From: a virus
Taxonomy: Duplodnaviria; Heunggongvirae; Uroviricota; Caudoviricetes
IMG/VR virus record: IMGVR_UViG_2917865565_000003
Location: 1-10,282 of that record
Length of the DNA stretch: 10,282 nt
Reading direction: 5' to 3' (one strand)
Within the stretch, counting starts at the first letter, position 1. Each line of letters begins with the position of its first letter. The notes beneath the pieces are model-generated. The model saw only the letters and a list, made by a program, of their open reading frames with translations. It had not been told where the DNA came from and made no database searches. The translations under genes were made by a program, and so were the position numbers. Positions 700 through 6,104 of the stretch are shown here, one piece after another.

Positions 700-731
700 G
701 CCCTTTTTCAGGGCGGGGATGTGTAAGAGCG
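700..731 (-). promoter_or_regulatory. nutR (boxB GCCCTGAAAAAGGGC at 700-714; boxA CGCTCTTAC at 723-731, read on the minus strand)
   Basis: Minus strand reads CGCTCTTACACATCCCCGCCCTGAAAAAGGGCAT, close to lambda nutR as I recall it; immediately downstream of the cro-like stop. Confidence 0.7.
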
Positions 732-1081: not shown

Positions 1082-1765
1082 GATAAATACGAACAAAGAC
1101 GACTAAGGCTGATAGAGATAAGAGACCGATTCTGTAATGGAAAGGCCTCAGAGTTGGCTCGTCGAATAGAAAGGGAACCATCATACGTTTCCAGAATGCT
1201 GTATCCGGAAGGAAAAAGCGGAAAAAAACGCATTGCTGACGATATGATGGAACTAATTGAAAAATCTTTTAATCTCCCACGCGGATGGATGGACATGCTT
1301 GTAGATGGTAAAGCTGGAGCTACAGACCATCTTGAGTTTGCGGGTAACGTTCGTGCGGGTTTTGTTCCGGTAATTGGTGAAGCCGTTTTGGGAGTTGATG
1401 GCTCAGTGGATATGATTGAATTCAGATCCGGTTGGTTAAGCATCTACAGCGGCGATAAAGATGCTTACGGTCTGAAGGTTAAGGGTGACAGCATGTGGCC
1501 AAGGATTCAGTCAGGAGAATATGTTGTTATTGAACCAAATACGCCAGTACATCCAGGTGATGAAGTCTTTGTAAGGACCAAAGACGGTCACAACATGATA
1601 AAGATCATGAACAAAACAAGAGACGGTGATTATCAGTTTAGTAGCATAAACAGTGATCACCGCCCAATCACTCTTCCTGTTGAAGAAGTTGATAAAATGC
1701 ATTTTGTTTCAGCTATTGTGAAACACACCAGGTACGTAGACCAGGACGATCTGCCAAAAGTTTGA
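1079..1765 (+). CDS. cI: CI-type prophage repressor with C-terminal S24 (LexA-like) autopeptidase domain, 228 aa
   Basis: Divergent from the cro-like gene across the operators. C-terminal half contains GDSMWP (Ser nucleophile motif) and a downstream Lys region (NMIKIMNK), typical of LexA/CI self-cleaving repressors. N-terminal domain is unlike lambda CI. Confidence 0.85.
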   Translation: MDKYEQRRLRLIEIRDRFCNGKASELARRIEREPSYVSRMLYPEGKSGKKRIADDMMELIEKSFNLPRGWMDMLVDGKAGATDHLEFAGNVRAGFVPVIGEAVLGVDGSVDMIEFRSGWLSIYSGDKDAYGLKVKGDSMWPRIQSGEYVVIEPNTPVHPGDEVFVRTKDGHNMIKIMNKTRDGDYQFSSINSDHRPITLPVEEVDKMHFVSAIVKHTRYVDQDDLPKV

Positions 1766-1779
1766 GGATAAAGCAGCAA

Positions 1780-2076
1780 ATGTTTATACCCGGCATAGTA
1801 GTCGCTGTTGTAATCATCTGCTTCATATGGGCACAGTTATCTCCTGTAAGCTCTAAGCATACAGCTGAACTCATGAGGAAGAAGCACCTTATACATGAGG
1901 CAGAATCGATAATTAAAAAGTTCAAAGGCATGTCATACGACGACATGTCATCAGAGCAGATTGCTATGTATAAATGCGCCATTGAGCGCCTTGACTACTT
2001 AAACGGACTCAAACCCAAACACACCCCAGTAGAATCAAAATTGCCGCAATGGCCAAGCAATCCAAATAGCTTCTGA
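1780..2076 (+). CDS. Small single-pass membrane protein (98 aa from ATG 1780), hypothetical, in the rex position
   Basis: Same frame as track ORF 1762..2076, whose TTG start overlaps the cI stop. ATG at 1780 with GAGGA at 1764-1768. One hydrophobic helix FIPGIVVAVVIICFIWAQL, then a charged soluble tail. Followed by an intrinsic terminator. Confidence 0.6.
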   Translation: MFIPGIVVAVVIICFIWAQLSPVSSKHTAELMRKKHLIHEAESIIKKFKGMSYDDMSSEQIAMYKCAIERLDYLNGLKPKHTPVESKLPQWPSNPNSF

Positions 2077-2129: not shown

Positions 2130-2214
2130 TTACCTGAAAATTCAAGCAGGTAAACTCTCACATCAATTTTATTTACCTACAGGTATAGACAGCAGTTTTA
2201 CCTGTAGGTATATT
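2130..2214 (+). promoter_or_regulatory. OL/pL: operators TTTACCTACAGGTATA (2172-2187) and TTTACCTGTAGGTATA (2197-2212); pL -35 TAGACA (2186-2191), 17-bp spacer, -10 TATATT (2209-2214); extra half-site pair TTACCTG (2130-2136) / CAGGTAA (2147-2153)
   Basis: Same operator consensus as OR. Promoter hexamers overlap the operators and point toward nutL and N. Confidence 0.7.
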
Positions 2215-2254
2215 TTAAGCCATCAGCAGGACGCACTAACCACCATGAAGGTGA

Positions 2255-2285
2255 TGCTCTTAAAAATTAAGCCCTGAAGAAGGGC
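2255..2285 (+). promoter_or_regulatory. nutL (boxA-like TGCTCTTAA 2255-2263; boxB GCCCTGAAGAAGGGC 2271-2285)
   Basis: Near-identical to lambda nutL as I recall it (…GCTCTTAAAAATTAAGCCCTGAAGAAGGGCAGCATTCAAAGCAG…). About 35-65 nt downstream of the predicted pL start. Confidence 0.8.
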
Positions 2286-2302
2286 AGCATTCAAAGCAGA
2301 AG

Positions 2303-2422
2303 GCTTTGGTGTGTGTGATACGAAACGAAGCATTGGCCGGAAGTGCGAATCCGGATTAGCTGCCAATGTGCCATTGCGGGGTGTTTTCGTTCAGGACTAC
2401 GACTCACACACACAACCAAAGC
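2303..2422 (+). other. Long-range stem in the N leader (GCTTTGGTGTGTGTGA … TCACACACACAACCAAAGC), equivalent to the RNase III-processed leader structure of lambda N
   Basis: The two arms are complementary with one bulge and enclose about 85 nt with further internal pairing (CCGGA…TCCGG). Lies between nutL and the N Shine-Dalgarno. Confidence 0.5.
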
Positions 2423-2442
2423 TAACTGACAGGAGAATCCAG

Positions 2443-2769
2443 ATGGATGCACAAACACGCCGCCGCGAACGTCGCGCAGAGAAACAGGCTCAATGGAAAG
2501 CAGCAAATCCCCTGTTGGTTGGGGTAAGCGCAAAACCAGTTAACCGCCCTATTCTCTCGCTGAATCGCAAACCGAAATCACGAGTAGAAAGCGCACTGAA
2601 TCCGATAGACCTTACGGTGCTGGCTGAATACCACGAACAGATTGAAAGCAATCTGCAACGTATTGAGCGCAAGAATCAGCGCACATGGTACAGCAAGCCA
2701 CGGAGTGAAATGGGTGTGACTTGTGTTGGTCGCCAGAAAATGAAATTAGGCAGCAAACCACTTATTTGA
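2443..2769 (+). CDS. N: Antitermination protein N (108 aa)
   Basis: MDAQTRRRERRAEKQAQWKAANPLLVGVSAKPVNRPILSLNRKPKSRVESALNPIDLTVLAEYH… is essentially lambda N. AGGAG at 2431-2435. The track ORF starting at 2311 is an upstream in-frame extension through the leader. Confidence 0.9.
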   Translation: MDAQTRRRERRAEKQAQWKAANPLLVGVSAKPVNRPILSLNRKPKSRVESALNPIDLTVLAEYHEQIESNLQRIERKNQRTWYSKPRSEMGVTCVGRQKMKLGSKPLI

Positions 2770-2780
2770 GAGGAATTAAT

Positions 2781-3404
2781 ATGTCATCAATCCGCTTAAC
2801 AACGAGAATGAAAGAGGAAATCGCTCGTAACGCTTTAATTAAGTCTGGGGTTTTCACTGAACTTGAAGAAGTAACAAAGTTAAAGAACCAGCTTGCACTT
2901 GACGCCAGAGTTATTGCGTTTGGCGGTAAAAAGAAAACTGAGGAAGTGGATCAGTTATCATCCAAGTTGGTAGCTATAAGTGAAGAACTTGAAAAGATGG
3001 GATGTTCATTTTACTCATACGATGTTCGTTCTACTTCAATTTATCTGACTGTATCTGGCAGAAGGGTTGGATGGCATTCATATGGGAAAGACGGCAACGG
3101 CGAAGATATATTGCTCCCTACTCCAACCAAAGATAAATGCATGTTTGACGCAGAACACGAAATAACAAAAAGGTTTGATGAAATCTGCGCATTGCAACAA
3201 AACCTTGAAGCCTTGAAAAAGGATATCGAATCAAATGTATGGGCTGCTTTGAACTCAGTCACAACAGTTAAGCGACTTATTGAAGTTTGGCCTGAAAGCA
3301 AAGAATTGCTACCAAAAGAAGCAGATAAAGCAAGTACAGCACTTCCTGCTTTACGGGTAGAAGATTTGAATAAGATGATTGGACTTCCTTCCGAGGCCGC
3401 ATAG
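2781..3404 (+). CDS. Hypothetical protein (207 aa from ATG 2781), unknown function
   Basis: ATG 2781 with GAGAGGA upstream, 11 nt after the N stop. Same frame as track ORF 2721..3404. Predicted largely helical with charged stretches. No motif I recognise. Confidence 0.6.
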   Translation: MSSIRLTTRMKEEIARNALIKSGVFTELEEVTKLKNQLALDARVIAFGGKKKTEEVDQLSSKLVAISEELEKMGCSFYSYDVRSTSIYLTVSGRRVGWHSYGKDGNGEDILLPTPTKDKCMFDAEHEITKRFDEICALQQNLEALKKDIESNVWAALNSVTTVKRLIEVWPESKELLPKEADKASTALPALRVEDLNKMIGLPSEAA

Positions 3405-3419
3405 TCGGCCTTTATTTTT
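3394..3419 (+). terminator. Rho-independent terminator (tL1-like position)
   Basis: Stem AGGCCG / CGGCCT with 6-nt loop containing the stop codon, followed by TTTATTTTT. Confidence 0.6.
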
Positions 3420-3448
3420 GGCATAAACAACAGAATAAACACTGCACT

Positions 3449-3476
3449 GTGTATTCATTCCAACGATTGAATACAC
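3449..3476. repeat. Perfect 9-bp inverted repeat GTGTATTCA-N10-TGAATACAC upstream of the next gene
   Basis: Exact reverse complements at 3449-3457 and 3468-3476. Candidate protein-binding site or RNA hairpin. Confidence 0.4.
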
Positions 3477-3578
3477 GGAGCAATGTCGCTCGTAACTAAA
3501 CAGGAGCCGACTTGTTCTGATTATTGGAAATCTTCTTTGCCCTCCAGTGTGAGGGCGATTTTTTTTGACGGAGAAATT

Positions 3579-3995
3579 ATGAAAATTACAGATATTCTGG
3601 TTAATCCAGATAATTACGACCAATTCAATATCTCTACTAAATCGGTTGATTTGGGATGTGCAACTGTCAGCGCATGGCTACTTAATGGTAAACAGTTGGA
3701 TAAATGCCTTGATGCACATATGACGGTTAACAGCTTCCTTGCAGAAAAGACACGCTGGCAAGATGCTGGAGGGAAATATGCTGAATGGCTTGAAAGCATG
3801 GGATTTGAATATCAATCTGATGAAGGTTGGTGGAGCATTATAGCTGTAACGCCTGAGACAATAGAATGCTTCGTTAAATACTCAAACGACGATGACTATA
3901 AACACCAGGTAGATTCTGCGATAGAAAGATACAAAAGAAAATCGTTCAACCACGAAATATCATCAGTTCTTGATTTCATAGAAATCTTCAAATAA
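3579..3995 (+). CDS. Hypothetical protein (138 aa from ATG 3579), unknown function
   Basis: GGAG at 3570-3573 with a 5-nt spacer to ATG 3579. The track ORF start at 3483 has only a 2-nt spacer and a poly-T run in the extension. No motif I recognise. Confidence 0.55.
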   Translation: MKITDILVNPDNYDQFNISTKSVDLGCATVSAWLLNGKQLDKCLDAHMTVNSFLAEKTRWQDAGGKYAEWLESMGFEYQSDEGWWSIIAVTPETIECFVKYSNDDDYKHQVDSAIERYKRKSFNHEISSVLDFIEIFK

Positions 3996-4078
3996 GCCGC
4001 CAAGCGCGGCTTTACCGCATACCAATAATGCTTCACCAGAGGCATTTCCGTTATGTGTAAATAAATAAGGAGCACACC

Positions 4079-4219
4079 ATGCAATATGCCATTGCAGGGT
4101 GGCCTGTTGCTGGCTGCCCTTCCGAATCTTTACTTGAACGAATCACCCGTAAATTACGTGACGGATGGAAACGCCTTATCGACATACTTAATCAGCCAGG
4201 AGTTCCAAAAAATGGATAA
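4079..4219 (+). CDS. cIII: CIII (46 aa), C-terminally shortened relative to the 54-aa lambda CIII
   Basis: MQYAIAGWPVAGCPSESLLERITRKLRDGWKRLIDILNQPGVPKNG then TAA; matches lambda CIII residues 1-46. AAGGAG at 4067-4072. Not in the ORF track (under 60 aa). Confidence 0.85.
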   Translation: MQYAIAGWPVAGCPSESLLERITRKLRDGWKRLIDILNQPGVPKNG

Positions 4220-4325
4220 AACACTTATGGCTATCCAGACTAAATTCACTATCGCCACTTTTATTGGCGATGAAAAGATGTTTCGTGAGGCCGTCGAAGC
4301 CTACAGGAAATGGAGGTCAAAATGA
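4212..4325 (+). CDS. kil: Kil-like host-killing protein (37 aa)
   Basis: MDKTLMAIQTKFTIATFIGDEKMFREAVEAYRKW… matches the lambda Kil N-terminus (MDQTLMAIQTKFTIATFIGDEKMFREAV…, from memory). Start overlaps the cIII 3' end in another frame, as in lambda. Confidence 0.7.
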   Translation: MDKTLMAIQTKFTIATFIGDEKMFREAVEAYRKWRSK

Positions 4326-4511
4326 TTCCGGTAGAACTGGCGAAAACTCCAGAGTTAAGTCGATTAAAAAAGAGAATATCACATTGCTGAGGCTCGTTAC
4401 TGGCGTAAAGCGGGAGATAAATCAAAGAAACAACTTTGTTTATGGCAGGCACAAAGAGAGCGCATGAATGAGCGCGAGTTTCTTTCCTCTCCATCCGAAT
4501 TACCATTCTGA
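4322..4511 (+). pseudogene. Small ORF interrupted at an A6 run: 22 codons from ATG 4322 (stop 4388-4390), then a 48-codon open frame to 4511 in the +1 frame
   Basis: ATG 4322 overlaps the kil stop (ATGA) with GGAGG at 4312-4316. Removing one A from the run at 4366-4371 would give a 63-aa product MIPVELAKTPELSRLKKREYHIAEARYWRKAGDKSKKQLCLWQAQRERMNEREFLSSPSELPF. Confidence 0.3.
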
Positions 4512-4519
4512 GGTGAATT

Positions 4520-5200
4520 ATGGGAACTGCGACATTAATACTCGGTGAGTCTGGCACCGGAAAATCAACCAGCATGAGAAATATCAATCCAGATGAAGCA
4601 ATACTTATAAAACCAATAGGCAAGCCGCTACCATTTAAATCAAAAGACTGGCTTGCATGGGATGCCAGAGCAAAAAAAGGAACTGTAGTTACCACTGACA
4701 AATGGGACGTAATAGTTGCCGTAATTAAGCGTGCTCACGAATACGGGAAAAGAATCGTTATTGTTGATGACTTCCAGTATGTGATGAGCAATGAGTTTAT
4801 GCGCCGCTCAGAAGAAAAATCGTTTGATAAATTCACTGAGATAGGCCGTCACGCATGGGAGGTCATTAAGGCTGCACAGGATGCGCCTGATGACCTGAGA
4901 GTCTATTTTCTTGCCCATACCGAAGAAACCCCTATGGGGCGTGTGAAAATGAAGACTATCGGCAAAATGCTGGACGAGAAAATCACTGTCGAAGGCATGT
5001 TTACTATAGTTCTTCGCACTCTTACCCGCGATGACCAGTTCTTTTTCACCACGAAAAACAACGGTGCAGACACTGTTAAATCCCCAATGGGAATGTTTGA
5101 TTCCAATGAGATTGATAACGATCTCTCTTTCGTCGATGCCACTGTTTGTGATTACTACGGCATCAATAATGTTCATCAAATTAAGGAAAACGCCGCATGA
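4520..5200 (+). CDS. Sak4-like P-loop ATPase (RecA-fold single-strand annealing recombinase family), 226 aa
   Basis: Walker A GESGTGKST at residues 9-17 and Walker B-like RIVIVDD. Size and N-terminal P-loop fit phage Sak4 proteins. Occupies the slot of Red bet/exo. GAGGTG Shine-Dalgarno. Confidence 0.7.
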   Translation: MGTATLILGESGTGKSTSMRNINPDEAILIKPIGKPLPFKSKDWLAWDARAKKGTVVTTDKWDVIVAVIKRAHEYGKRIVIVDDFQYVMSNEFMRRSEEKSFDKFTEIGRHAWEVIKAAQDAPDDLRVYFLAHTEETPMGRVKMKTIGKMLDEKITVEGMFTIVLRTLTRDDQFFFTTKNNGADTVKSPMGMFDSNEIDNDLSFVDATVCDYYGINNVHQIKENAA

Positions 5201-5784
5201 GCAACGTGATTTTTACTTATAACGAAGAAGCAGCACTGACCGCAGGACAAGGTGGTTTTATTAATGAAACTGGCGCTCATGTCATTACCATTACTGAAGC
5301 AGAGCTAAAGCAATCAGAAAAAGGCGCAAAATTTATTGAGTTTTCTGGCGAATCCGACGACGGACGTAAAATCCAATATCTTAGCGTTTGTGTTCAGAAA
5401 AATGACGGAACGGAAAACAAATTTGGCGCAAATGTCGTTCACGCCATGATGGGGTGTGCCGGGATTGGACAATTAACGCAACATATGGTTTCCGCCAGTA
5501 AATTTGTTGCTCCTGAGTTTCACGGAAAGAAAATCGGGTTAGTGCTACAGAAAGTATTAACCACAAACAAAAAGACTGGCGCAGACAGTTACCAGATGGA
5601 AATACGCATCCCGTTTATTGCACAAACAGGTCAAACCCTTAAAGAAAAGGCGGAAGGCAAGCAACCAGAAACTATCGCCAACATGGTTGCCAGCCTCAAA
5701 GATAAAGACAATCGCTCTAAAAACGTAAGCCAGAATCATGCAGATGATTATGGTTACAGCCAGAACGATTACCCTCCTTTCTGA
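5197..5784 (+). CDS. Putative SSB-like partner protein (195 aa) with acidic C-terminal tail ending …NDYPPF
   Basis: Start ATG overlaps the Sak4 stop (ATGA), implying translational coupling. The C-terminal DDYGYSQNDYPPF resembles the acidic D-x-PF tip of SSBs. Sak4 genes are commonly paired with an SSB. OB-fold not verified. Confidence 0.5.
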   Translation: MSNVIFTYNEEAALTAGQGGFINETGAHVITITEAELKQSEKGAKFIEFSGESDDGRKIQYLSVCVQKNDGTENKFGANVVHAMMGCAGIGQLTQHMVSASKFVAPEFHGKKIGLVLQKVLTTNKKTGADSYQMEIRIPFIAQTGQTLKEKAEGKQPETIANMVASLKDKDNRSKNVSQNHADDYGYSQNDYPPF

Positions 5785-5807
5785 TTACTGAAAATAAGGC
5801 TCCCATT

Positions 5808-6104
5808 ATGCCAGCGCCTCTGTATGGTGCGGATGACCCGCGCCGCTGTTCCGGCAATTCCGTATCGGAGGTGCTGGATAAATTCAGAAAAAACTACGAC
5901 CTGATAATGTCGCTACCGCAGGAAACGAAAGAGGAAAAGGAATTTCGCCATTGTATATGGCTTGCAGAGAAAGAAGAACGCGAGCGAATTTACCAGACAT
6001 CAATCCGACCATTCCGCAAAGCCACATATACCCACTTCCCTGAATATATCGACCCGCGCCTGCGTAATTACCGCTCACGCTATGGCGCTATCAGTAATGA
6101 CTGA
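5808..6104 (+). CDS. Hypothetical protein (98 aa)
   Basis: ATG 5808 with AAGG 8 nt upstream. Charged, helical-looking product. Same strand and tight spacing within the early-left operon. Confidence 0.55.

What the first reader, a model, noticed from the sequence alone, without database searches (positions are those of the whole stretch)
2781..3995. Two unassigned genes between N and cIII (the ral/sieB/ea10 slot), separated by a terminator and a perfect palindrome
The lambda-identical N and cIII-kil blocks flank a 1.2-kb segment encoding a 207-aa and a 138-aa protein with no motif I can recognise. In lambda this position carries the accessory genes ral, sieB and ea10, so unknown genes here are candidates for anti-restriction or exclusion functions. 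An intrinsic terminator (3394-3419) and a perfect 9-bp inverted repeat (3449-3476) lie between them, which hints at separate regulation of the second gene.
Basis: partly seen in the sequence, partly recalled or inferred. Interest (0 to 1): 0.6.

Follow-up and report, generated by a model that had tools for sequence, protein, structure and literature searches.

The report
Two swappable genes flanking lambda's PreS RNA
The segment is an ordinary lambdoid-phage mosaic: two exchangeable accessory genes of untested function (one from the named family Nmad5, one from an unnamed acidic family) lie on either side of a lambda-identical stretch that encodes the known small RNA PreS and its terminator.

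Summary
Both ORFs, the terminator and the palindrome are at the stated coordinates. Three parts of the description do not hold.

- **The segment is not uniformly non-lambda.** Window 3401-3564, which contains the palindrome, is 98% identical to lambda's ral-ea10 intergenic region. It encodes the published Hfq-dependent sRNA PreS/LPR1 (window 3478-~3566). The palindrome is the core of a hairpin that ends next to the PreS 5' end.
- **The 207-aa gene is not unassigned.** It is a full-length member of Pfam Nmad5 (E 3.5e-71). The name comes only from gene neighbourhoods. The predicted fold is a helical bundle with no enzyme-like match. No modification genes accompany it in this window, or in the annotation of one complete phage genome that carries it (Kapi1). 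It sits before the first predicted terminator of the pL operon.
- **The two genes are independent cassettes.** They occur together in 2 of 8 Nmad5 loci.

The 138-aa gene belongs to an unnamed acidic family (phrog_8967). It occupies the ea10 slot behind two terminators and also occurs in virulent rV5-like phages.

Neither protein's function is established. The anti-restriction or exclusion idea is neither supported nor excluded. This is a new member of a known kind, of low to moderate interest.

The parts
2271..2285 (+). nutL boxB (GCCCTGAAGAAGGGC), the N-utilisation site on the pL transcript
   Evidence: Exact match to the boxB pattern I searched from memory, with 0 expected by chance. It lies inside the block that is 96.7% identical to lambda's pL leader and N.
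2443..2769 (+). Antiterminator N (108 aa)
   Evidence: Pfam N36 at E 1.5e-26. Lambda-like up to 2699; the 3' end resembles phage 21 and HK542.
2781..3404 (+). Gene A: Nmad5-family protein (207 aa), a cassette in the sieB/ral slot, 12 nt after the N stop codon and with no predicted terminator upstream
   Evidence: PF18757 at E 3.5e-71, covering 1-206 of 206 profile positions. phrog_1965 at E 1.5e-83. NCBI's annotation pipeline names it 'Nmad5 family putative nucleotide modification protein'. AF2 model pLDDT 86.5. Non-lambda DNA spans 2771-3400.
3393..3419 (+). Terminator-like hairpin plus T-run; the stop codon of gene A lies in its loop
   Evidence: -11 kcal/mol. Its 3' arm and T-run are lambda sequence and its 5' arm is Nmad5 coding sequence. 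It is weaker in HK542 and Kapi1.
3439..3486 (+).
   Evidence: 22-nt arms, 82% complementary; -21.7 kcal/mol, z -6.5. The arms are identical to lambda. The lambda-type hairpin is present in 132 of 139 PreS loci.
3478..3566 (+). PreS (LPR1) Hfq-dependent sRNA gene, identical to lambda's up to the T-run
   Evidence: The 5' end is set by cloning primer P810 (GAGCAATGTCGCTCGTAACT = window 3478-3497). The unmutated form of primer P839 matches 3494-3542 exactly. The paper describes an sRNA of about 88 nt between ral and ea10 that ends at tL2a.
3537..3566 (+). Intrinsic terminator tL2a (8-bp stem, T8), the 3' end of PreS
   Evidence: -12.9 kcal/mol. The equivalent site is annotated tL2A in HK620 and as a terminator in phage 21.
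3579..3995 (+). Gene B: 138-aa acidic protein of unknown function (phrog_8967), a cassette in the ea10 slot; ribosome-binding site GGAG at 3570-3573
   Evidence: phrog_8967 at E 1e-84, covering 1-138 of 138. No Pfam, PADLOC or NCBIfam hit. 62 representatives in 1.84 billion proteins. pI 4.7. 62-65% identical copies in 115 phage records, the ones listed being genomes of about 130-140 kb, Vequintavirinae/rV5-type where labelled.
3996..4060 (+). Lambda-like linker with two hairpins (tL2b region) between the ea10 slot and cIII
   Evidence: Homology to lambda resumes at 3996. Folds at -23.7 kcal/mol, z -3.9. HK620 annotates tL2B here.
4066..4325 (+). cIII thermoregulator (4066-4124), cIII (4079-4219) and kil (4212-4325)
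   Evidence: Rfam RF01804 at 88.5 bits. Translations. 92.8% identical to lambda.

Best explanation
The interval is a normal stretch of a lambdoid early-left (pL) operon. Conserved linker sequences alternate with exchangeable accessory-gene cassettes.

**Layout.** Transcription runs from pL through nutL and N. Gene A (Nmad5 family) follows N by 12 nt, with no predicted terminator in between. It should therefore be made with N at the very start of infection or induction.

**The intergenic block.**
- A modest terminator closes the gene A cistron.
- Next comes lambda's own ral-ea10 intergenic region.
- Terminator tL2a forms the 3' end of PreS.
- In lambda, PreS binds Hfq, raises translation of host dnaN and boosts phage DNA replication. 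The sequence here is identical, so I infer the same role.
- I infer that the hairpin helps define or protect the RNA ends created when PreS is cut from the pL transcript.

**Gene B.** N-modified polymerase reads through both terminators into gene B, a delayed-early acidic protein in the ea10 slot, and then into cIII and kil.

**Gene A mechanism (inferred, roughly 30% confidence).** Nmad5 is not an enzyme. It is a helical adaptor that binds a conserved host or replication-associated partner through two invariant elements:
- a TxK[K/R]LIxxWPE helix
- a conserved but disordered C-terminal LPAL..DLN..IGLP peptide

In Dhillonvirus, this helix is where mutants that escape the Tmn defence map.

**Gene B mechanism.** Unknown. 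The best guess is a small acidic binder or inhibitor of a host protein. The two genes are not a functional pair.
For: **Shown**
- Window 3401-3564 is 98.2% identical to lambda 34087-33925.
- PreS lies between ral and ea10, is about 88 nt long and ends at tL2a.
- The published primers place its 5' end at window 3478, and the triplet mutated in the paper's M1 base-pairing mutant is intact at 3517-3519.
- On the + strand of 2200-4400 the only predicted terminators are at 3393 and 3537, and no promoter-like site lies upstream of the gene B start.
- nutL boxB and a lambda-type N are present.
- Cassette boundaries coincide with gene boundaries.
- Of 139 PreS loci, 132 have the lambda-type hairpin. 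Six have a sequence-unrelated 11-bp hairpin that ends 1 nt before PreS +1. One is cut by IS903.
- The slots flanking PreS hold 19 (upstream) and 12 (downstream) protein families. Nmad5 pairs with the 138-aa gene in 2 of 8 loci.

**Nmad5**
- Full-length Pfam match.
- All hits in the profile search are single-domain proteins of 185-254 aa.
- It is the first gene called after the repressor gene in Klebsiella and Serratia prophages, preceded by a strong promoter-like site.
- A 16-residue stretch, LNSVTTVKRLIEVWPE, is identical in Pseudomonas phage YuA gp15.
- The conserved C-terminal tail has pLDDT 46-60.
- BF9 residues K215-K216 align with window K164-R165. Tmn-escape mutations are K216E and K296E.
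- Kapi1 carries Nmad5 with no annotated nucleotide-modifying enzyme in its whole genome.
Against: - No expression or RNA-end data exist for this prophage. PreS function is carried over from lambda by sequence identity alone.
- The hairpin's role in processing is inferred. The preprint passages I read give no mechanism for making the 5' end. Sequences are too similar for a covariation test, and the alternative hairpin is seen in only 6 loci.
- Terminator 1 is poorly conserved in relatives, so it may matter little.
- The 'adaptor' model for Nmad5 rests on the absence of an enzyme-like fold and on conservation patterns. No partner is identified.
- In YuA, Nmad5 sits inside a thymidine-hypermodification cluster. 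In an N4-like phage it sits next to a thymidylate synthase. A DNA or nucleotide-linked role cannot be excluded.
- The K216 mapping assumes that phage SMA8 uses the same numbering as the 254-aa BF9 protein.
- The gene B model is poor (pLDDT 66.8; the four other models 39-46), so the lack of fold matches says little.
Confidence: 0.75

Rival explanations
1. Both genes are counter-defence or exclusion genes. Nmad5 or the 138-aa protein would relieve restriction or block a host immune system, or exclude superinfecting phage, like ral and sieB in lambda.
For: - They occupy hypervariable early-operon slots that hold ral in other phages.
- Nmad5 should be expressed at the earliest time.
- The Dhillonvirus homologue interacts genetically with the Tmn defence.
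- The 138-aa family is uniformly acidic, with median pI 4.69. It is shared between temperate lambdoid phages and virulent rV5-like phages, as mobile accessory genes often are.
Against: - No similarity to Ral, SieB, Ea10 or any PADLOC model.
- Nmad5 co-occurs with ral in E. coli D1.
- In Dhillonvirus, the wild-type Nmad5 goes with sensitivity to Tmn. Deleting it did not give escape. That behaviour is not that of an inhibitor.
- Acidity alone is weak evidence.
Confidence: 0.2
2. Nmad5 is a true accessory subunit of a DNA base-modification pathway, as its name suggests, and modifies or marks phage DNA here too.
For: - In YuA and M6-like phages the gene lies within the thymidine-hypermodification cluster (PMC9476957).
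- In an N4-like Shigella phage it follows a thymidylate synthase gene.
Against: - No kinase, hydroxymethylase, aGPT-Pplase, radical SAM or PLP enzyme is found in the window or annotated in the whole Kapi1 genome.
- The enzyme classes named in the abstract of the thymidine-hypermodification pathway paper do not include it.
- The fold is a helical bundle with no enzyme-like match.
- Few invariant polar residues.
- In Dhillonvirus it is a lone gene on the opposite strand within the head-gene module.
Confidence: 0.1
3. The palindrome is a DNA operator for a regulatory protein that controls the second gene.
For: It is a perfect 9-bp inverted repeat with a 10-bp spacer.
Against: - It is lambda sequence from a well-studied region, and none of the lambda, phage 21 or HK620 annotations I retrieved marks an operator there.
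- No predicted promoter is nearby.
- In lambda the stem extends to 14 bp with a 4-nt loop, which is typical of an RNA hairpin.
- Six loci replace it with a different hairpin at the same distance from PreS. That conserves structure and position, not a binding sequence.
Confidence: 0.05

Closest known systems
Phage lambda PreS/LPR1 sRNA with terminator tL2a (ral-ea10 intergenic region)
   Same: The sequence is identical from the 5' end set by the published primer to the T-run. Position between the ral slot and the ea10 slot is the same. The GC-rich stem plus U-tail, the intact M1 base-pairing triplet and the upstream hairpin all match.
   Different: The T-run is 8 T rather than 6. There is one G-to-T change in the upstream hairpin, at 3467. 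The flanking genes are Nmad5 and the 138-aa gene instead of ral and ea10. Expression was not tested here.
Pfam PF18757 Nmad5 (for example YuA gp15, Dhillonvirus Nmad5, Shigella phage B2 gp19)
   Same: Full-length profile match. The motifs RLT, TxK[K/R]LIxxWPE and LN..G.P are invariant. All members are single-domain and of similar size.
   Different: Here, and in Klebsiella and Serratia prophages, it is the first or second gene of the pL operon with no modification enzymes nearby. In YuA it sits inside a hypermodification cluster. In Dhillonvirus it is a lone gene among head genes.
Lambda accessory genes ral, sieB and ea10
   Same: Same operon positions relative to N, PreS/tL2a and cIII. Gene B shows the same predicted dependence on N antitermination as ea10.
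   Different: No sequence or profile similarity. Ral can coexist with Nmad5.
Uncharacterised genes in a long same-strand array of small hypothetical genes in rV5-like (Vequintavirinae) phages, for example MaxTheCat bas57_0086
   Same: 62-65% identical to the 138-aa protein over its full length.
   Different: These are virulent phages of about 130-140 kb. There is no PreS or lambdoid linker context. Function is equally unknown.

Membership tests
Pfam Nmad5 (PF18757) | Profile score above the curated gathering threshold, covering the whole domain | tested here: met
   239.9 bits against a cut-off of 27. Residues 4-203 match profile positions 1-206 of 206.
Pfam Nmad5 (PF18757) | Family-wide invariant motifs: N-terminal RLT, TxK[K/R]LIxxWPE, and C-terminal LN..G.P | tested here: met
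   R5, L6, T162, L166, W170, P171, E172, L196, N197, G201 and P203 are invariant across 11 diverse members, including YuA, BF9 and Shigella B2.
Pfam Nmad5 (PF18757) | Neighbourhood association with nucleotide or DNA-modification genes (the basis of the name) | tested here: not met
   None in the 10-kb window. None annotated in the complete Kapi1 genome. Present in YuA.
PreS/LPR1 sRNA of lambda | Sequence identity to lambda lpr1 from its mapped 5' end through the site mutated in the M1 base-pairing mutant | tested here: met
   Primer P810's 3' part equals window 3478-3497. The unmutated P839 sequence equals 3494-3542. Alignment to lambda.
PreS/LPR1 sRNA of lambda | Rho-independent terminator (tL2a) as the 3' end, with a GC-rich stem and poly-U | tested here: met
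   Stem at 3537-3558 plus T8, -12.9 kcal/mol. Annotated tL2A in HK620.
PreS/LPR1 sRNA of lambda | Hfq binding, expression only in the lytic cycle, and up-regulation of dnaN | not testable with these tools
   Reported for lambda only.
Ral anti-restriction family | Sequence or profile similarity to Ral | tested here: not met
   No Ral hit for either protein in Pfam or PHROGs. A separate ral gene precedes Nmad5 in E. coli D1.
Ea10 (lambda early ssDNA-binding protein) | Profile similarity of the 138-aa family to Ea10 | tested here: not met
   hhalign probability 0.6% over 5 columns.
Known anti-phage defence proteins (PADLOC-DB), including SieB-like exclusion | Profile match | tested here: not met
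   No families at E up to 1 for either protein.
Acidic DNA-mimic anti-restriction proteins (Ocr/ArdA type) | Strong negative charge together with a DNA-mimic fold | tested here: inconclusive

The most novel reading that the evidence does not exclude
Nmad5 is misnamed. On this reading it is a widespread, non-enzymatic, immediate-early phage protein. It docks onto a conserved host or replication factor through its invariant TxK[K/R]LIxxWPE helix and its disordered C-terminal peptide, the same surface that the Tmn defence monitors. The acidic 138-aa protein, shared by lambdoid prophages and rV5-like virulent phages, would be a new inhibitor of a host function. The two hypervariable slots flanking PreS would then be a counter-defence and host-takeover hot spot. 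The hairpin abutting PreS would be the signal that releases the sRNA from the pL transcript.
Probability: 0.25. Interest if true: 0.6.

Novelty: new member of a known kind. Interest (0 to 1): 0.3.

Why it matters
- **Annotation.** The apparent regulatory signals between the two genes belong to lambda's ral-ea10 intergenic region and its published sRNA gene. That sRNA has no Rfam hit, so it is easy to overlook.
- **Where to look for accessory genes.** PreS/tL2a acts as a conserved linker flanked by two very variable gene slots, with 19 and 12 protein families in my sample. That makes it a practical anchor for harvesting candidate accessory genes from prophages.
- **A testable doubt about the Nmad5 name.** In several enterobacterial prophages Nmad5 is the first or second pL gene, with no modification enzymes nearby and no enzyme-like fold.
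- **A small lead on PreS biogenesis.** Two unrelated hairpins occupy the same position against the PreS 5' end.

None of this overturns current understanding.

Tried and rejected
- **PDB sequence searches** with profiles of both families gave only chance-level hits, E 0.3 or worse.
- **BFVD (viral structures) search** returned only other Nmad5 or unnamed phage proteins.
- **The afdb50 library** was not available.
- **PADLOC and NCBIfam** gave nothing for either protein.
- **Pfam scan of 57 members of the 138-aa family** gave only three single, spurious hits.
- **HTH idea.** The Nmad5 motif SVTTVKRLIEVWPE might have been a helix-turn-helix like that of Xis. Pfam scans of the C-terminal fragment at E up to 10 returned no HTH family, so I dropped the idea.
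- **Domain fusions.** I looked for fusions that could hint at Nmad5 function. All listed hits are single-domain.
- **Contexts of distant 138-aa homologues** were short contigs or arrays of unnamed small genes.
- **The search for related loci with the wide alignment** failed for lack of a conserved stretch.
- **Anti-Tmn.** I considered whether the 138-aa protein is the Dhillonvirus anti-Tmn protein. That family is reported only in Dhillonvirus, apart from a single Skarprettervirus occurrence.
- **Longer ORF 3483-3995 (170 aa).** Rejected. It would run through PreS and tL2a, and all homologues and the PHROG profile start at M33.
- **Rfam** has no hit at PreS.
- **Own promoter for PreS.** None predicted.
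Full report
**1. The observation**

The window is a lambdoid prophage with early-left (pL) transcription on the + strand.
- ORF 2781-3404 encodes 207 aa and ORF 3579-3995 encodes 138 aa. Homologues share these lengths.
- The terminator-like hairpin at 3393-3412 with a T-run to 3419 is real. It folds at -11 kcal/mol, z -2.9.
- The perfect 9-bp inverted repeat at 3449-3457 and 3468-3476 is real.

- A second, stronger terminator lies at 3537-3558 plus T8 (-12.9 kcal/mol).
- The palindrome is the core of a longer hairpin at 3439-3486 (-21.7 kcal/mol, z -6.5).
- The middle of the supposedly foreign 1.2 kb is itself lambda sequence.
- The 207-aa protein belongs to a named Pfam family.

**2. Mosaic structure**

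BLAST against lambda gives three homologous blocks:

| Window | Content | Identity to lambda |
|---|---|---|
| 2221-2699 | pL leader, nutL, most of N | 96.7% |
| 3401-3564 | lambda 34087-33925: ral stop codon to the terminator before ea10 | 98.2% |
| 3996-4314 | end of ea10, cIII, kil | 92.8% |

- The non-lambda DNA is therefore two separate cassettes, 2771-3400 and 3565-3995. Each coincides with one gene.
- Lambda's order is N-sieB-ral-[intergenic]-ea10-cIII. Here it is N-Nmad5-[same intergenic]-138aa-cIII.
- E. coli D1 has N-like, ral, Nmad5, the same intergenic region and the 138-aa gene. Nmad5 therefore does not replace ral.

**3. The intergenic block is the PreS sRNA gene**

A bioRxiv paper (10.1101/2024.10.31.621285) describes LPR1/PreS:
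- It is an Hfq-bound sRNA of about 88 nt, processed to about 68 nt, located between ral and ea10.
- Its 3' end is terminator tL2a.
- It is made only in the lytic cycle.
- It raises dnaN translation and supports lambda DNA replication.

The paper's primers let me place it in the window.
- The 3' part of cloning primer P810 (GAGCAATGTCGCTCGTAACT) is window 3478-3497.
- The unmutated sequence of mutagenesis primer P839 matches 3494-3542 exactly. The triplet mutated in the M1 base-pairing mutant is CTG at 3517-3519.
- PreS is therefore 3478 to about 3566, identical to lambda up to the T-run.
- HK620's annotation labels the equivalent terminator tL2A, and phage 21's annotation marks a terminator there.
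- Rfam has no hit there.

**4. The palindrome**

- Its arms are identical to lambda.
- In lambda, which has G where the window has T at 3467, the stem is 14 bp with a 4-nt loop.
- It ends at 3476, two bases before PreS +1.
- Among 139 PreS-bearing loci, 132 carry this hairpin and one (HK022) is cut by IS903.
- Six loci carry a sequence-unrelated 11-bp hairpin (ATAGCAGATT / TACG / AGTCTGCTAT) that ends one base before PreS +1.
- No promoter is predicted upstream of PreS.

Two unrelated hairpins at the same position point to an RNA-level role. I infer that the hairpin sets or protects the ends produced when PreS is released from the pL transcript. This is inference. The sequences are too similar for covariation analysis.

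**5. Regulation**

- nutL boxB is at 2271-2285, and N is lambda-type.
- On the + strand between 2200 and 4400, the only predicted terminators are the two described above.
- Gene A starts 12 nt after the N stop codon, so it should be immediate-early and independent of N.
- Gene B lies behind both terminators. Its ribosome-binding site (GGAG, 3570-3573) comes just after the tL2a T-run. It should need antitermination, as ea10 does in lambda.
- Terminator 1 is weak in HK542 (-5.2 kcal/mol) and Kapi1 (-4.9), and lambda has no equivalent hairpin. It is not a conserved device.

**6. Gene A (Nmad5)**

*Family.*
- PF18757 at E 3.5e-71 over the full length, and phrog_1965.
- NCBI's annotation pipeline names it 'Nmad5 family putative nucleotide modification protein'.

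*Structure.*
- The AF2 model (pLDDT 86.5) is a three-helix bundle, a beta-hairpin, a long helix, short helices and a low-confidence tail.
- BFVD gives only other Nmad5 or unnamed phage proteins.

*Conservation.*
- Across very different phages the invariant residues are R5, L6, G93, T162, L166, W170, P171, E172, L196, N197, G201 and P203. This is not a recognisable catalytic set.
- LNSVTTVKRLIEVWPE is identical in Pseudomonas phage YuA gp15.
- All listed family members are single-domain.

*Genomic contexts differ widely.*
- In YuA it lies inside the thymidine-hypermodification cluster.
- In an N4-like Shigella phage it lies between a thymidylate synthase gene and replication genes.
- In Dhillonvirus it is a lone opposite-strand gene among head genes.
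- In Klebsiella and Serratia prophages it is the first gene called after the repressor gene, preceded by a strong promoter-like site.
- The whole Kapi1 genome has Nmad5 and no annotated modification enzyme.

*Link to the Tmn defence.*
- In Dhillonvirus, Tmn-escape mutants carry K216E or K296E in Nmad5.
- Deleting the gene does not give escape.
- The gene is toxic to clone.
- K215-K216 of the 254-aa Dhillonvirus protein align with K164-R165 here.

My reading, at about 30% confidence, is a non-enzymatic early adaptor that binds a conserved partner through this helix and the conserved flexible tail.

**7. Gene B (138 aa)**

- phrog_8967 over the full length. No Pfam, PADLOC or NCBIfam hit.
- Only 10 clusters appear in the word-indexed search. 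The exhaustive search finds 62 representatives.
- The family core is DWGGxYAxWLxxxGI...GWWS..A.
- The family is uniformly acidic, with median pI 4.69.
- Copies 62-65% identical occur in 115 phage records. The ones listed are genomes of about 130-140 kb, Vequintavirinae/rV5-type where labelled. In MaxTheCat the copy sits in a long same-strand array of small unnamed genes.
- It is unrelated to Ea10.
- The structure model is poor and gives no fold match.
- Function is unknown.

**8. The two genes are independent**

- Of 22 lambdoid loci found through the 138-aa gene, all have PreS just upstream and only four have Nmad5.
- In the slot census, Nmad5 pairs with the 138-aa gene in 2 of 8 loci.
- The upstream slot holds 19 protein families: Ral 34, a 156-aa protein 14, Nmad5 10, and others. 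The downstream slot holds 12: Ea10 39, a 55-aa ORF 32, the 138-aa protein 15, and others.
- The sample over-represents the 138-aa gene, because 26 loci were fetched through it.

**9. Verdict**

The features are real, but they describe an ordinary lambdoid mosaic. A known sRNA gene and its terminator are flanked by two exchangeable accessory cassettes, one from a named but biochemically uncharacterised family and one from an unnamed family. The anti-restriction or exclusion idea is untested and has no positive support. I rate novelty as a new member of a known kind and interest as 0.3.

Noticed in passing
L032 3870-3901 (also L070, L111, L152 and two more loci): Six PreS loci replace the lambda-type hairpin with an unrelated 11-bp hairpin (ATAGCAGATT / TACG / AGTCTGCTAT) that ends 1 nt before PreS +1. 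In these loci, homology to the window begins exactly at the PreS 5' nucleotide.
   Followed up: partly
window 1762-2076 (+): A 104-aa ORF overlaps the stop codon of the S24-type repressor gene. It has a hydrophobic N-terminus and matches phrog_10450 (unknown function). It sits where lambda has rex, so it may be a lysogen-expressed exclusion gene.
   Followed up: no
window 4520-6104 (+): The recombination module is a Sak4-like ATPase (phrog_2872), an SSB (phrog_743) and the P22-type anti-RecBCD protein Abc2 (PF11043), instead of lambda's gam/bet/exo.
   Followed up: partly
window 7203-7847 (+): A 214-aa ORF has an Invasin_D4 Ig-like domain at its N-terminus (E 3.5e-8) and no PHROG match. It follows a gap of about 370 bp free of + strand ORFs. 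It may be a moron-like, surface-related gene, which is unusual for this arm.
   Followed up: no
window 2160-2215 (+) and 700-714 (-): Repeated TACCTGTAGGTA / TACCTACAGGTA palindromes lie just upstream of the pL leader. They look like OL operators of a non-lambda immunity type. A nutR boxB with one mismatch to the nutL boxB pattern (GCCCTGAAAAAGGGC) is at 700-714 on the - strand.
   Followed up: partly
window 4066-4124 (+): The lambda cIII thermoregulator RNA element (Rfam RF01804, 88.5 bits) overlaps the start of cIII.
   Followed up: yes
window 3393-3419 compared with L002 3689-3721, L001 3689-3721 and lambda: The mosaic junction between the Nmad5 cassette and the lambda linker falls inside terminator 1. 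The 5' arm is Nmad5 coding sequence, and the 3' arm and T-run are lambda. Stem strength varies from -11 to about -5 kcal/mol among relatives, and lambda has no hairpin there.
   Followed up: yes
L009 5001-10621 (Providencia prophage): Here Nmad5 heads a module containing a DUF2800 protein, an Enc34-type ssDNA-binding protein and a family-A DNA polymerase. A 1.1-kb stretch with no called gene separates the repressor gene from Nmad5.
   Followed up: no
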